From positions 4,246 through 68,245 of IMG/VR virus record IMGVR_UViG_3300036768_001340: 64,000 nucleotides of DNA. One strand, written 5' to 3'. The stretch is from a virus. The position numbers and the translations under genes are program-made. A model generated the notes under the pieces. The model did no database searches. It was not told where the DNA came from and saw nothing but the letters and a program-made list of their open reading frames with translations. Positions 41,541 through 43,685 of this stretch are shown here, piece after piece. Position 1 is the stretch's first letter. Every line of letters starts with the position of its first letter.

Positions 41541-41621
41541 TGGCACCTCTGACAGGAGTCGAACCTGCGTGTTATCTAATCACCGTTTCAATGACTTAGA
41601 ATGTCAGACGGGCGTTGAGGT
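41541..41621 (-). tRNA. Non-canonical tRNA-Arg(UCU)-like RNA lacking a D-arm at the normal position
   Basis: T-arm GCAGG-TTCGACT-CCTGT; encoded CCA; anticodon hairpin TGAC-ATTCTAA-GTCA; acceptor ACCTCAA/CAGAGGT (5 of 7 paired). Confidence 0.65.
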
Positions 41622-41630
41622 GAGAAGGTC

Positions 41631-42107
41631 TTAGATTCTCTTGAGGAATCCGAGGAGGGCGGCTGCCTCAACATCCGAGAACGATAGTAACGACTTCAGA
41701 CCACCGTGGACCTCTCTTGAGGTACGGTCCCGATCGAGTAGCTTCCTGAGGACGTCACGTTCTGCGGAGGTTACCTCAAGGTGTACGGATTCATCGTCGA
41801 TTTCTACTGGGAATAGATAGCCCTCGACGGTCTTACGTCGCGGGATCCTCTTGAGGAATCCGAGGAGGACGGCTGCTTCGGCATCCGAGAATGACAGTAA
41901 CGACTTCAAACCGCCGTTGACTTTTCCTGAGGTACTGTCCCAACCGAGTAGCTTCCTGAGGACGTCCCGTTCTACGGGGGTCACCTCAAGGCACACGGAG
42001 TCATCGTCGATTTCTACCGGGACCAGGTAGGCCTCGATGGTCTTGCGTTGTGGCTGGGGCTCAGATGGATTGCCCTCACCCTCGAAGTTGCTCTTCTTCG
42101 GCATTAT
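41631..42107 (-). CDS. Hypothetical protein made of a 70-aa tandem duplication
   Basis: 210-bp period (41641 vs 41851); start MPKKSN assumed. Confidence 0.7.
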   Translation of the reverse strand: MMPKKSNFEGEGNPSEPQPQRKTIEAYLVPVEIDDDSVCLEVTPVERDVLRKLLGWDSTSGKVNGGLKSLLSFSDAEAAVLLGFLKRIPRRKTVEGYLFPVEIDDESVHLEVTSAERDVLRKLLDRDRTSREVHGGLKSLLSFSDVEAAALLGFLKRI

Positions 42108-42175
42108 GGTACGTATGGTAGCTCTTTCGGGTGCACTCGTCGTCATACCACATGATCGTGATAGGATAGGATGAT

Positions 42176-42391
42176 ATGCAATCCATCATCTTCTTTACTG
42201 CCTGTAACGGTAACGAGTACGAGCTACAAGTTGAACACGATCCGATCGTATCCATTCCAATCTCCGTAAGGGAGTTATCCGACGGGACAGTTCGAGAAGT
42301 TGAAGGCGATCGACAGTGGGCCGATCTTCGGGAGATGACCCATGACCTTAAGACCGAGATCAAGAAGTGGTCCTCTGACGTCGGTAATTGA
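42176..42391 (+). CDS. Small hypothetical protein, antisense to the tRNA operon
   Basis: 71-aa ORF with AGGA upstream; plausible composition. Confidence 0.5.
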   Translation: MQSIIFFTACNGNEYELQVEHDPIVSIPISVRELSDGTVREVEGDRQWADLREMTHDLKTEIKKWSSDVGN

Positions 42392-42434
42392 TCGTTTGAA
42401 AACACGAGAACGGATCGCTGGGTGTGTTCATTTG

Positions 42435-42509
42435 TCGCGGTGGTCGGAATTGCACCGACGTAGTCGCGGGTTATGAGCCCGGATTGGAAATGCTAACATC
42501 CTCACCGCA
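42435..42509 (-). tRNA. tRNA-Met(CAU), initiator-like, atypical D- and T-loops
   Basis: CCGGG-CTCATAA-CCCGC with GGG/CCC pairs; acceptor TGCGGTG/CACCGCG; T-loop TGCAATT. Confidence 0.75.
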
Positions 42510-42544
42510 TGACGGATTATCCGAAGATATTCCGTGTTAGAAAG

Positions 42545-42621
42545 CGCCACTGGCAGGACTCGAACCTGCGTGAATCCGACTACCCTTTCTACAGCTTAGG
42601 AAACTGAGGGGATACAGTGGC
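42545..42621 (-). tRNA. Non-canonical tRNA-Arg(CCU)-like RNA lacking a D-arm at the normal position
   Basis: Perfect acceptor GCCACTG/CAGTGGC; T-arm GCAGG-TTCGAGT-CCTGC; anticodon hairpin CAGT-TTCCTAA-GCTG only 8 nt after the acceptor strand. Confidence 0.75.
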
Positions 42622-42691
42622 AAGTCGTGTCGAGGTTGAGCACAATAATAACGCAGCAAAATGAGCATTTGCCGCTGAAGTGGCCTAATCG

Positions 42692-42777
42692 TGCTTCCGC
42701 AGAGAGTCGAACTCTGACCGGGCGCCCATCTGGCCACGGGGTATAAACCCGCCTGCTCTACCGAGAGCTACGGAAGC
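42692..42777 (-). tRNA. tRNA-Ile(UAU) with long variable region
   Basis: GCTTCCG/CGGAAGC acceptor; GCGGG-TTTATAC-CCCGT; 19-nt variable region; CAGAG-TTCGACT-CTCTG. Confidence 0.85.
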
Positions 42778-42904: not shown

Positions 42905-42979
42905 TGGTCGGTGTGCGCTCGGAGTTCGAACCGCCTGGCGGTCTCGAGTATCATGCTACCTCCCCGCTGGGAACACCGG
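42905..42979 (-). ncRNA. tRNA-sized CCA-ending RNA of irregular fold
   Basis: CGGTGT/ACACCG helix followed by ACCA; CGG-TTCGAACT-CCG T-like hairpin; GCGG/CCGC internal helix; lies between tRNAs. Confidence 0.55.
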
Positions 42980-43353: not shown

Positions 43354-43438
43354 TGGGTCTGGCAGGACTCGAACCTGCATATGGACGCAATGTCCCCCGA
43401 TTAAAAGTCGGGTGGTCAGCCTTTGACACCACAGACCC
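43354..43438 (-). tRNA. tRNA-Lys(UUU) with long variable arm
   Basis: GGGTCTG/CAGACCC; CCCGA-CTTTTAA-TCGGG; variable hairpin GGAC-ATTGC-GTCC; GCAGG-TTCGAGT-CCTGC. Confidence 0.85.
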
Positions 43439-43538: not shown

Positions 43539-43601
43539 GAAGAGGATAGAGATCACCCTCTATAAAAGAGATGCACGGTCTATTCTATTTTCAAAGTTCT
43601 G

Positions 43602-43685
43602 CGGGTCGTTGAGGATTCGAACCTCTGACTTTCGTCCTAACCGATTTTCAAGACCGGCGCTGGAACCCGTCCAGCTTAACGACCC
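43602..43685 (-). tRNA. tRNA-Ser(UGA) with 8/4 acceptor/T stems and 6-bp D-stem
   Basis: GGGTCGTT/AACGACCC (8 bp); GAGG-TTCGAAT-CCTC (4 bp); GCTGGA-CGGGT-TCCAGC; CCGGT-CTTGAAA-ATCGG; G discriminator. Confidence 0.85.

What the first reader, a model, noticed from the sequence alone, without database searches (positions are those of the whole stretch)
41541..42621. Two Arg-anticodon RNAs with a re-wired tRNA topology: no D-arm, extended anticodon helix, D-loop-like segment moved 3' of the anticodon
Seen: 41541-41621 (UCU) and 42545-42621 (CCU) share one layout. It runs acceptor strand, 8 nt, 4-bp anticodon stem with 7-nt loop, a TWGAA internal loop, a strand pairing back to the 8-nt linker (CCGT/ACGG in one, CCC/GGG in the other), an 11-12-nt single strand (ATTAGATAACAC; GTCGGATTCAC), a canonical T-arm and the acceptor. 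The copies differ in sequence but keep pairing (TGAC/GTCA vs CAGT/GCTG), and together they match both AGR Arg codons, which argues against random decay. Known: G18G19 of the D-loop docks on the T-loop and A20 is the major ArgRS identity element; D-armless tRNAs are best known from mitochondria. Inference: GTCGGAT may supply a relocated G18-G19-A20, giving an L-shaped tRNA with a different chain path. It could be a translating, nuclease-resistant tRNA-Arg, a decoy, or an arginyl donor. I cannot tell whether the class is already described.
Basis: partly seen in the sequence, partly recalled or inferred. Interest (0 to 1): 0.85.

Follow-up and report, generated by a model that had tools for sequence, protein, structure and literature searches.

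The report
Rewired non-cloverleaf phage arginine tRNAs
Two genes in this phage's tRNA region belong to a large, mostly unannotated class of phage tRNAs whose D-arm is rebuilt from two strands on either side of the anticodon arm; one looks like a working arginine tRNA and the other is a weaker copy.

Summary

They are not relics. A covariance model built only from other phages' members scores C2 (42545-42621, CCU) at 77.6 bits and C1 (41541-41621, UCU) at 47.2 bits. The window's ordinary tRNAs score 27.6 bits or less.

The class is large.

The helix that replaces the D-stem covaries. Nucleotides 11 and 12 form Watson-Crick pairs with the two bases before the D-loop-like segment in 106 of 106 distinct sequences, with four pair types each.

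Identity elements follow the anticodon. On C2's scaffold, 59 of 59 YCU members have A after GG, and 0 of 122 Ile-anticodon members do.

ARAGORN finds 5 of 106 Arg-type and 0 of 53 Ile-type members.

C2 is very probably a working tRNA-Arg(CCU); AGG is this contig's commonest Arg codon. C1 departs at U8, A9, A14 and G18 and has two acceptor mismatches, so it may be impaired.

Eight literature searches found no description. This scan has noted the same class before on other phage DNA.

The parts
42545..42621 (-). C2: rewired tRNA-Arg(CCU) gene, 77 nt, discriminator G at 42545, no encoded CCA
   Evidence: Sequence. R2 (no window sequences in the model) 77.6 bits, E 7e-19. R1 86.9 bits. RF00005 31.2 bits with the D-arm deleted. 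Not called by ARAGORN.
42615..42621 (-). C2 acceptor 5' strand; pairs 7/7 with 42546-42552
   Evidence: Pairs listed; R2 alignment.
42609..42611 (-). C2 nt 11-13 (CCC): 5' strand of the long-range D-like helix. It takes the place of D-stem strand 22-25 and runs on into the anticodon stem.
   Evidence: Pairs with GGG at 42583-42585. The equivalent columns covary in 106 other sequences and in alignment A4.
42592..42606 (-). C2 anticodon arm: 4-bp stem CAGU/GCUG and loop UUCCUAA, anticodon CCU at 42598-42600. A U-U opposition sits on top of the stem.
42583..42585 (-). C2 nt 37-39 (GGG): 3' strand of the D-like helix, in the place of D-stem strand 10-13. It is preceded by the linker UAGAAA (42586-42591).
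42570..42582 (-). C2 D-loop-like segment UAGUCGGAUUCAC. Proposed equivalents: A14 and G15, G18-G19 at 42577-42576, A20 at 42575, and C48 at 42570.
   Evidence: A after GG in 59/59 same-scaffold YCU members. G15-with-C48 rule holds in 9/9. Identity rule from PMC9976931.
42553..42569 (-). C2 T-arm: GCAGG / UUCGAGU / CCUGC
41541..41621 (-). C1: rewired tRNA-Arg(UCU)-type gene. 78 nt, with discriminator G at 41544, followed by an encoded CCA at 41541-41543.
   Evidence: Sequence. R2 47.2 bits, E 1.7e-10. R1 58.1 bits. No RF00005 match at E<=1. No ARAGORN call.
41608..41611 (-). C1 nt 11-14 (CCGU): 5' strand of the D-like helix; pairs with ACGG at 41583-41586
   Evidence: Four pairs, C-G, C-G, G-C and U-A. 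G13-C37 is a both-sides change relative to C2.
41592..41606 (-). C1 anticodon arm: UGAC/GUCA stem and loop AUUCUAA, anticodon UCU at 41598-41600
41569..41582 (-). C1 D-loop-like segment UGAUUAGAUAACAC. It has G where the class has A14, and A-G where the class has G18-G19. The A in the A20 place is kept.
   Evidence: R2 alignment against the class consensus UAAuUGGAu.
41545..41568 (-). C1 T-arm (GCAGG / UUCGACU / CCUGU, the first pair G-U) and acceptor 3' strand. Pairs 6-67 (A-A) and 7-66 (A-C) are mismatched.
   Evidence: NC marks; pairs.

Best explanation
C2 and C1 are members of a widespread, phage-borne class of tRNAs that are not cloverleaves.

The acceptor stem, anticodon arm and T-arm are standard. 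There is no D hairpin. Instead, three (sometimes four) nucleotides just after U8-A9 pair with three nucleotides lying 3' of the anticodon arm. This makes a D-stem-like helix that stacks on the anticodon stem and encloses it.

The D-loop (A14, R15, G18, G19, N20) follows that 3' strand and runs straight into the T-stem through a Y48-like base. All core parts of the L-shape are therefore present, but the chain passes through them in a different order. This part is inferred from sequence rules, not from a structure.

C2 carries the bacterial arginine identity set at the equivalent places: A after GG, C35, U36 and discriminator G. It is most likely transcribed with the array and processed by RNase P. 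The host would add its CCA, as for most of its neighbours. ArgRS would then charge it, and it would read AGG, the commonest arginine codon of this contig.

C1 (UCU, reading AGA) has the same topology and an encoded CCA. It has lost several near-invariant core bases and two acceptor pairs, so it is either a weakened or a decaying paralogue.

Shown here: class membership, covariation of the long-range helix, the link between anticodon and position 20, and non-redundancy with ordinary tRNAs in arrays.

Inferred: the folding, the processing, the charging and the decoding.
For: Membership. R2, built from 108 matches in other phage contigs, scores C2 at 77.6 and C1 at 47.2 bits, against 27.6 or less for the window's ordinary tRNAs. 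In other loci, class members score 45.6-95.3 bits and ordinary tRNAs 30.9 or less.

Long-range helix.
- Anchor-based count on 106 distinct sequences. Position 11 against the base before UA is Watson-Crick in 106/106 (CG 79, GC 14, UA 11, AU 2). Position 12 against the base before that is Watson-Crick in 106/106 (GC 44, CG 27, UA 26, AU 9). Position 13 scores 85/106. Off-register comparisons score 6-64.
- On the model-fitted alignment A4, the two outer pairs are paired in 96/96 distinct rows. The covariation score is 0.890 against 0.10-0.16 for slid partners, and 0 of 500 shuffles reach it.
- C1 against C2 shows C-G changed to G-C at pair 13-37.

Identity elements.
- A after GG in 59/59 YCU members of C2's scaffold, with that position unconstrained.
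- A after GG in 15/15 Arg-anticodon members found without a GGA constraint (plus C2).
- A after GG in 0/122 Ile-anticodon members of the same scaffold: U in 120 and C in 2.
- The discriminator is A in 52/53 distinct Ile-type sequences. In 106 Arg-type sequences it is G 53, A 37, U 14 and C 2.
- These match the bacterial Arg set (A20, C35, U/G36, A/G73) and Ile set (U20, A73, A35, U36) in PMC9976931, Table 1.

Tertiary rule. R15 and N48 are A-U in 98, G-C in 5 and other in 3 of 106. G goes with C in 9/9 and A with U in 34/36.

Use in arrays. Of 53 members in loci with 10 or more ARAGORN tRNAs, 1 has an ordinary tRNA with the same anticodon. The window has no ordinary tRNA-Arg.

Demand. AGG makes up 386 and AGA 108 of 1,492 Arg codons in a crude set of 60 ORFs. 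The seven ordinary tRNAs are Trp(CCA) and six with U at position 34.
Against: - There is no expression, processing or aminoacylation evidence. No RNA run holding this DNA was available.
- RNAalifold on a plain MAFFT alignment of 27 sequences predicted the acceptor, anticodon and T stems but not the 3-bp long-range helix. MAFFT had placed gaps inside its 3' strand.
- Single-sequence folding is not decisive. C2: MFE -27.9 against -23.0 kcal/mol for the proposed fold, z = -2.86. C1: -19.4 against -16.1 kcal/mol, z = -0.79.
- C1 has C8-G9 instead of U8-A9, G instead of A14, A-G instead of G18-G19, A15 opposite C48, and two acceptor mismatches. It sits about 0.9 kb from the array, behind two ORFs.
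- A terminator-like hairpin lies between tRNA-Ile and C2 at 42675-42653. The scan found 4 such sites against 3.2 expected, so this is weak.
- Most member sets were gathered with sequence patterns. Counts of conserved motifs are therefore partly by construction. The sequences are related, so counts are not independent events.
- The contig is about 33% complete, so an ordinary tRNA-Arg could lie elsewhere in the genome.
Confidence: 0.72

Rival explanations
1. C1, or both elements, are decaying tRNA remnants with no present function. On this view C1 is a pseudogene copy of a rewired tRNA-Arg.
For: C1 departs from the class at U8, A9, A14 and G18, has mismatches at acceptor pairs 6-67 and 7-66, and scores at the bottom of the class range: 47.2 bits by R2 against 45.6-82.6 for R1 hits elsewhere. 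No orthologue of C1 was found with a C1-specific pattern in metagenome contigs. Its fold has z = -0.79. A similarly odd member without GG exists elsewhere (L230, anticodon UAC).
Against: For C2, every class feature is intact and it scores 77.6 bits. For C1, the long-range helix is 4/4 paired with a compensatory change, and the anticodon loop, T-arm, A in the A20 place, discriminator G and an encoded CCA are all kept. The class as a whole is under clear structural selection.
Confidence: 0.15
2. They are tRNA mimics that are not used by the ribosome. Possible roles would be decoys that soak up host anticodon nucleases or other tRNA-targeting defences, or arginine donors for a non-ribosomal transfer.
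For: The altered core could plausibly change recognition by host factors. Phage tRNA arrays are thought to counter tRNA-targeting defences (recalled, not tested here). The window holds other tRNA-like elements that are not cloverleaves.
Against: Anticodons in the class are limited to Arg and Ile sets, and each comes with the matching synthetase identity bases. Members fill anticodon slots that ordinary tRNAs in the same arrays leave empty: 52 of 53. The anticodon loops keep U33 and a purine at 37, and the T-loops are standard. A decoy would not need a correct discriminator or position 20.
Confidence: 0.1
3. They are ordinary cloverleaf tRNAs after RNA processing, that is, an intron-bearing or permuted gene whose mature product has a normal D hairpin.
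For: All D-arm parts are present but in a different order. Permuted and split tRNA genes exist in some algae and archaea (recalled).
Against: Both acceptor strands are at the gene ends, so this is not a circular permutation. Restoring a cloverleaf would need two cuts and two ligations inside a 77-nt RNA. No extra sequence is available to be removed: 8 nt lie between the acceptor and anticodon stems. The rearranged order itself is what covaries across 106 sequences.
Confidence: 0.02

Closest known systems
Canonical class I bacterial and phage tRNA-Arg (Rfam RF00005 cloverleaf)
   Same: 7-bp acceptor stem, 5-bp T-stem with a UUCRANY loop, 7-nt anticodon loop with U33 and a purine at 37. G-G-A in a D-loop-like segment, C35, discriminator G or A. 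Sits in a tRNA array.
   Different: There is no D hairpin between the acceptor and anticodon arms. One D-stem strand and the D-loop lie 3' of the anticodon arm. RF00005 scores members at 36.5 bits or less (7 of 21 reach the gathering score), against 33-74 bits for their neighbours. C2 scores 31.2 bits and C1 gets no match.
D-armless mitochondrial tRNAs (for example metazoan mt-tRNA-Ser(AGY) and nematode mt-tRNAs; recalled, and cited in PMC11551756)
   Same: No D hairpin at the usual place; a short linker between the acceptor and anticodon stems.
   Different: Those replace the D-arm with a short loop and lose the G18-G19/T-loop contact. Here a D-like helix, a D-loop with GG and a standard T-loop are all kept. 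The setting is bacterial translation, for which a 2024 paper states that all known tRNAs are cloverleaves (PMC11551756, abstract).
The same rewired scaffold carrying isoleucine anticodons in phages (found here; for example Rhodococcus phage Peregrin MH153807 93496-93571 and Microbacterium phage Magritte OR553905 73536-73612, both unannotated)
   Same: Nearly the same core as C2: UAUCCCCU, a 4-bp stem, U.GAAAGGG, then UAGUYGG and CAC before the T-stem.
   Different: Anticodon UAU or GAU, U instead of A after GG, and discriminator A instead of G.
Allo-tRNAs and other bacterial tRNAs with novel cloverleaves (8/4 and 9/3 acceptor/T structures; PMC5389517, seen as search listing and abstract start only)
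   Same: Non-standard tRNAs found in bacteria and phages by sequence mining; missed or mis-typed by standard finders.
   Different: Those are still cloverleaves with a D hairpin and a long variable arm. C1 and C2 have the standard 7/5 acceptor/T arrangement and no D hairpin.

Membership tests
Rewired (non-cloverleaf) phage tRNA class, as defined here by models R1 and R2 | Score with a covariance model built without the query is above the gap that separates members (45 bits or more) from ordinary tRNAs (31 bits or less) | tested here: met
   R2: C2 77.6 bits, C1 47.2 bits, window's ordinary tRNAs 27.6 or less. The gap is seen.
Rewired (non-cloverleaf) phage tRNA class, as defined here by models R1 and R2 | Long-range helix of 3 bp or more between nt 11-13 and the three bases just 5' of the D-loop-like segment, enclosing the anticodon arm | tested here: met
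   C2 has CCC/GGG and C1 has CCGU/ACGG. The class-wide figures are 106/106, 106/106 and 85/106 Watson-Crick pairs.
Rewired (non-cloverleaf) phage tRNA class, as defined here by models R1 and R2 | U8-A9 after a 7-bp acceptor stem, and a D-loop-like U-A-R-N-N-G-G segment | tested here: inconclusive
   C2 meets all of these. C1 has C8-G9, U-G-A..A-G, and 5/7 acceptor pairs. The feature is therefore met for C2 and not met for C1.
Canonical tRNA (Rfam RF00005) | D hairpin (stem 10-13/22-25 closing the D-loop) between the acceptor stem and the anticodon arm | tested here: not met
   Only 8 nt lie between the acceptor and anticodon stems. cmscan deletes the D-arm (15 model positions against 4 nt) and inserts 18 nt in the variable region for C2. 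C1 has no match at E<=1.
Bacterial tRNA-Arg identity set (A20, C35, U/G36, A/G73; PMC9976931 Table 1) | The identity bases are present at structurally equivalent positions | tested here: met
   C2: G-G-A, C35, U36, G73. C1: A-G-A, C35, U36, G73. The equivalence of the position after GG with position 20 is inferred from the 59/59 against 0/122 split.
Bacterial tRNA-Arg identity set (A20, C35, U/G36, A/G73; PMC9976931 Table 1) | Arginylation by ArgRS | not testable with these tools
   No biochemical or RNA data are available; no RNA run was listed.
D-armless mitochondrial-type tRNA | D-arm replaced by a short unpaired loop, with loss of the D-loop/T-loop G18-G19 contact elements | tested here: not met
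   C2 and the class keep a D-like helix, GG and a standard T-loop.
Circularly permuted tRNA gene | The 3' half of the tRNA is encoded upstream of the 5' half, so the acceptor strands are internal to the gene | tested here: not met
   The acceptor 5' and 3' strands are at the two ends of both elements.

The most novel reading that the evidence does not exclude
The rewired core is a phage-specific tRNA chassis that can switch identity. The same scaffold serves as tRNA-Ile (NAU, U20, A73) or tRNA-Arg (YCU or NCG, A20, R73) through a handful of point changes. C2 would be such a switch product, from an Ile(UAU)-type scaffold to Arg(CCU). The changed chain path keeps recognition by ArgRS or IleRS, EF-Tu and the ribosome. 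It removes the ordinary D-arm that host tRNA-targeting nucleases or turnover pathways would need. The phage could then keep reading AGG, AGA and AUA codons while host tRNAs are attacked or scarce.
Probability: 0.2. Interest if true: 0.9.

Novelty: new variant of a known kind. Interest (0 to 1): 0.8.

Why it matters
[quoted passage not shown] If these RNAs are charged and used, a natural and widespread class of tRNAs working on bacterial ribosomes is not a cloverleaf. Its members sit in cultured E. coli, Salmonella, Klebsiella, Pseudomonas, Streptomyces, Rhodococcus and Microbacterium phages.

Three practical consequences would follow:
- Phage tRNA counts and codon-complementation analyses are biased, because ARAGORN finds 5 of 106 Arg-type and 0 of 53 Ile-type members.
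- The class offers a natural experiment on which parts of tRNA connectivity matter to RNase P, synthetases, EF-Tu and the ribosome.
- It offers a ready-made non-canonical scaffold for tRNA engineering.

For this window, it assigns the phage's readers of AGG, its commonest Arg codon, and of AGA.

Tried and rejected
- BLAST of the 2.4-kb array region against GenBank phages found nothing.
- Single-protein searches for syntenic relatives, using the RNaseH-like and Peptidase_C39 neighbours, found no relative in viral contigs.
- The first DNA pattern was too strict and found nothing. The second was too loose: most of its roughly 120 hits were chance matches in AT-rich coding DNA, and only L041 and L048 were real.
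- BLAST with the Magritte UCU element found only itself, so short-RNA BLAST is insensitive across subfamilies.
- A C1-specific pattern found no orthologue in metagenome contigs, so I could not judge C1 by conservation.
- ARAGORN in permissive and mitochondrial modes produced hundreds of calls across the contig and was uninformative.
- RNAalifold on a MAFFT alignment did not recover the long-range helix. I attribute this to gaps placed in its 3' strand, but it is a negative result.
- No RNA holder was listed for this DNA.
- The promoter and terminator scans were at chance level.
- The elements at 42418-42497 and 42905-42979 are not members of this class by R1 or R2.

Literature. Eight searches returned no paper describing a tRNA of this topology in phages or bacteria. 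The library lacks most subscription journals, and supplements were closed, so a description elsewhere cannot be excluded.
- PMC13092985 (4-bp anticodon stems) was checked by term search and does not mention phages or this fold.
- PMC7609411 (review of non-canonical tRNAs) has no occurrence of 'phage'.

Correction. An earlier count said 8 of 21 members reach the Rfam gathering score. Recounting one search gives 7 of 21.

Full report
**1. What is in the window**

The window is most of a 68,245-base viral contig that CheckV estimates to be 33% complete. ARAGORN calls seven tRNA genes, all on the minus strand between 42691 and 43685: Ile-UAU, Trp-CCA, Pro-UGG, Thr-UGU, Lys-UUU, Leu-UAA and Ser-UGA. 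The two elements of the finding also read as tRNA-like only on the minus strand.

C2 (42621 down to 42545) lies 70 nt downstream of tRNA-Ile. C1 (41621 down to 41541) lies about 0.9 kb further on. Two ORFs separate them. C1 sits just upstream of a Peptidase_C39-like gene.

- acceptor strand;
- 8-nt linker;
- 4-bp anticodon stem with a 7-nt loop (CCU in C2, UCU in C1);
- U-W-G-A-A;
- a strand pairing back to the linker (GGG with CCC in C2, ACGG with CCGU in C1);
- a single strand of 13-14 nt that looks like a D-loop;
- a standard T-arm and the acceptor 3' strand.

Neither element is called by ARAGORN. Rfam's tRNA model reaches 31.2 bits for C2 only by deleting the D-arm and inserting 18 nt in the variable region. 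It gives nothing for C1 at E<=1.

**2. Relatives**

BLAST of C2 against GenBank phages gave partial matches to unannotated DNA in two actinophages, Microbacterium phage Magritte and Rhodococcus phage Peregrin.
- Magritte holds two elements of the same layout in the gap between its annotated tRNA-Cys and tRNA-Ala. One has anticodon UCU and one has GAU.
- Peregrin holds one, with anticodon UAU.

It matched only 7 stretches in 596 billion bases of prokaryote genomes, all of them metagenome-assembled genomes. Of the 120 elements extracted, 104 have anticodon UAU, 15 GAU and 1 UAC.

Its 123 matches gave 106 distinct sequences. Each has at least 6 of 7 acceptor pairs and at least 4 of 5 T-stem pairs, and neither of those 3' strands was in the pattern. 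The other 17 matches were duplicates or failures, which I did not separate.

One Arg(UCU) subfamily alone matches 268 GenBank phage records. These include Felixounavirus, Klebsiella phage KB57, rV5-like phages and a Streptomyces phage. Of the 25 rows shown, most carry no annotation at that place and a few read 'tRNA' or 'tRNA-OTHER'. Another subfamily matches ten records, nine of them Pseudomonas phages.

**3. Membership of C1 and C2**

I built model R1 from 30 sequences that included C1 and C2. In 65 loci it separated members (45.9 bits or more, 71 hits) from ordinary tRNAs (30.9 bits or less). In 98 further loci it gave 108 hits of 45.6-82.6 bits.

To avoid circularity I built R2 from those 108 hits only, so it contains no window sequence. 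R2 scores C2 at 77.6 bits and C1 at 47.2 bits. The best ordinary tRNA in the window scores 27.6 bits.

**4. Is the long-range helix real?**

On the model-fitted alignment A4 the two outer pairs of the helix are standard pairs in 96 of 96 distinct rows, with four pair types each. The third pair holds in 79 of 91 rows, and the fourth is mostly unpaired. For the whole structure the covariation score is 0.890, against 0.10-0.16 when partners are slid by 1-3 columns. None of 500 shuffles reaches it.

A fitted alignment leans toward its structure, so I repeated the count with sequence anchors only. Positions were counted from the 5' end, against positions counted back from the U-A that opens the D-loop-like segment.

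| Pair | Watson-Crick | Pair types |
|---|---|---|
| nt 11 with base -1 | 106/106 | CG 79, GC 14, UA 11, AU 2 |
| nt 12 with base -2 | 106/106 | GC 44, CG 27, UA 26, AU 9 |
| nt 13 with base -3 | 85/106 | GC 34, CG 47, UA 4 |

Off-register comparisons score between 6 and 64 of 106.

RNAalifold on a plain MAFFT alignment of 27 sequences did not predict this helix. MAFFT had put gaps inside its 3' strand. I report this as a negative result.

**5. Is the relocated segment a D-loop?**

Two sequence rules say yes.

First rule: position 20. Bacterial ArgRS identity rests on A20 and C35. Bacterial Ile identity includes U20 and A73 (PMC9976931, Table 1 and the arginine passage).
- I searched metagenome contigs for C2's scaffold with a YCU anticodon, leaving the base after GG free. 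All 59 hits have A there.
- All 15 Arg-anticodon members found without any GGA constraint also have A. These are C2, Magritte's UCU element, five and eight.
- Among 122 Ile-anticodon elements of the same scaffold none has A: U in 120 and C in 2.
- Discriminators follow suit. A is found in 52 of 53 distinct Ile-type sequences. The 106 Arg-type sequences have G 53, A 37, U 14 and C 2.

Second rule: the Levitt pair. In ordinary tRNAs R15 pairs with Y48 (recalled knowledge). Here the base after U-A and the base just before the T-stem are A and U in 98, G and C in 5, and other combinations in 3 of 106. In the metagenome set G goes with C in 9 of 9 and A with U in 34 of 36.

C2 has G with C, G-G-A, C35, U36 and discriminator G.

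**6. Geometry (inferred; based on recalled tRNA structure)**

In a cloverleaf the D-stem stacks on the anticodon stem. One continuous strand runs 22-25, 26, 27-31. The opposite strand reads 39-43, 44, then 10-13.

The rewired tRNAs simply join 43/44 to the strand that stands for 10-13. They join U8-A9 to the strand that stands for 22-25. They let the D-loop run into the region of 46-48 and the T-stem. All three new joints connect residues that are neighbours in the L-shape. An ordinary L with a different chain path is therefore plausible. No structure was computed.

**7. Are they used?**

Among 179 members in the fetched loci, the anticodons parse as UCU 84, UAU 51, CCU 16, GAU 9, UCG 9, CCG 4 and ACG 4. 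Two are doubtful parses. These counts are not de-replicated and come from pattern-selected loci.

Fifty-three of the members sit in loci with at least ten ARAGORN tRNAs. Only one of those has an ordinary tRNA with the same anticodon nearby. In several arrays the rewired gene supplies the one Arg anticodon that the ordinary genes leave out.

In this window there is no ordinary tRNA-Arg. In a crude set of 60 long ORFs (19,257 codons), AGG accounts for 386 and AGA for 108 of 1,492 Arg codons. Of the seven ordinary tRNAs, one is Trp(CCA) and six have U at position 34. C2 lacks an encoded CCA, but so do six of its seven neighbours.

**8. C1 is the weaker copy**

Against the class consensus, C1 shows these departures:
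- C8-G9 for U8-A9;
- G for A14;
- A opposite C at the 15/48 places;
- A-G for G18-G19;
- A-A and A-C oppositions at acceptor pairs 6-67 and 7-66.

It keeps a 4-bp long-range helix with a compensatory change, the anticodon loop, the T-arm, the A in the A20 place, discriminator G and an encoded CCA. I found no orthologue with which to test conservation.

My estimates are about 0.8 that C2 is a working tRNA-Arg(CCU) and about 0.45 that C1 still works.

**9. Comparison with what is known**

The class works like tRNA-Arg or tRNA-Ile but fails the defining cloverleaf feature, the D hairpin.
- It differs from D-armless mitochondrial tRNAs, which lose the D-stem and the GG/T-loop contact.
- It differs from permuted tRNA genes, because the acceptor strands are terminal.
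- It differs from allo-tRNAs, which are cloverleaves with 8/4 or 9/3 acceptor/T arrangements.

In 20 loci, 7 of 21 members reach Rfam's tRNA gathering score, at 29.2-36.5 bits. The other 95 tRNA matches score 33-74 bits. ARAGORN of 106 Arg-type and 0 of 53 Ile-type members.

**10. Novelty**

Eight full-text searches found no description. A 2024 paper's abstract states that all known bacterial tRNAs are cloverleaves. A 2020 review of non-canonical tRNAs never mentions phages. The library is incomplete and supplements were closed.

Earlier notes of this scan describe the same class in other phages. I took them as leads and re-derived each claim I use.
- The same scaffold carries Ile or Arg identity, with matching changes at position 20 and the discriminator.
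- C2 sits in a G15/C48 sub-group of Arg(CCU) genes that closely resembles the Ile(UAU) group.

**Verdict**

C2 is a well-formed member of a large, undescribed class of non-cloverleaf tRNAs. C1 is a divergent member and may be impaired. Function in translation is inferred, not shown.

Noticed in passing
window 42418-42497 (-): A further tRNA-like element. It has a perfect 7-bp acceptor stem, the anticodon loop CUCAUAA on a GGG/CCC stem (initiator-like), a weak D region and an odd T-loop, UGCAAUU. ARAGORN does not call it, Rfam gives no match at E<=1, and it is not a member of the rewired class.
   Followed up: partly
window 43601-43685 (-): The tRNA-Ser(UGA) gene matches Rfam tRNA-Sec (RF01852) best, at 41.8 bits, below the gathering score of 47. 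It looks like an 8-bp acceptor with a 4-bp T-stem.
   Followed up: no
window 43354-43438 (-) and 42692-42777 (-): tRNA-Lys(UUU) and tRNA-Ile(UAU) carry long variable arms, which is unusual for these amino acids. In the Lys gene, nt 10-14 could pair either within a D hairpin or with the variable arm. R1 and R2 align it the second way, at 24.7 and 27.6 bits.
   Followed up: no
window 41631-42146 (-): The 171-aa ORF between C1 and C2 contains two tandem copies of a segment of about 210 nt, starting near 41638 and 41848 on the plus strand. Pfam gives no significant match.
   Followed up: no
L127 1407-1483 and 1497-1573 (OR553905.1 73446-73522 and 73536-73612); L128 1494-1569 (MH153807.1 93496-93571): Microbacterium phage Magritte has two unannotated rewired tRNAs (UCU and GAU) between its annotated tRNA-Cys and tRNA-Ala. 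Rhodococcus phage Peregrin has one (UAU) in an unannotated gap.
   Followed up: yes
L048 8183-8420 (-): One viral contig carries three rewired tRNA-Arg genes in tandem (UCU, CCU, CCG), 7-8 nt apart, each followed by an encoded CCA.
   Followed up: partly
L245-L251 (genome contigs): The Ile-type scaffold occurs 7 times in 596 billion bases of prokaryote genomes. All seven are in metagenome-assembled genomes (Saccharibacteria, Firmicutes-like), often on short contigs, so they may be phage or prophage DNA binned with the host.
   Followed up: no
window 42653-42675 (-): A terminator-like hairpin with a U-rich tail lies between tRNA-Ile and C2. The scan found 4 such sites against 3.2 expected, so it may be chance.
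   Followed up: no
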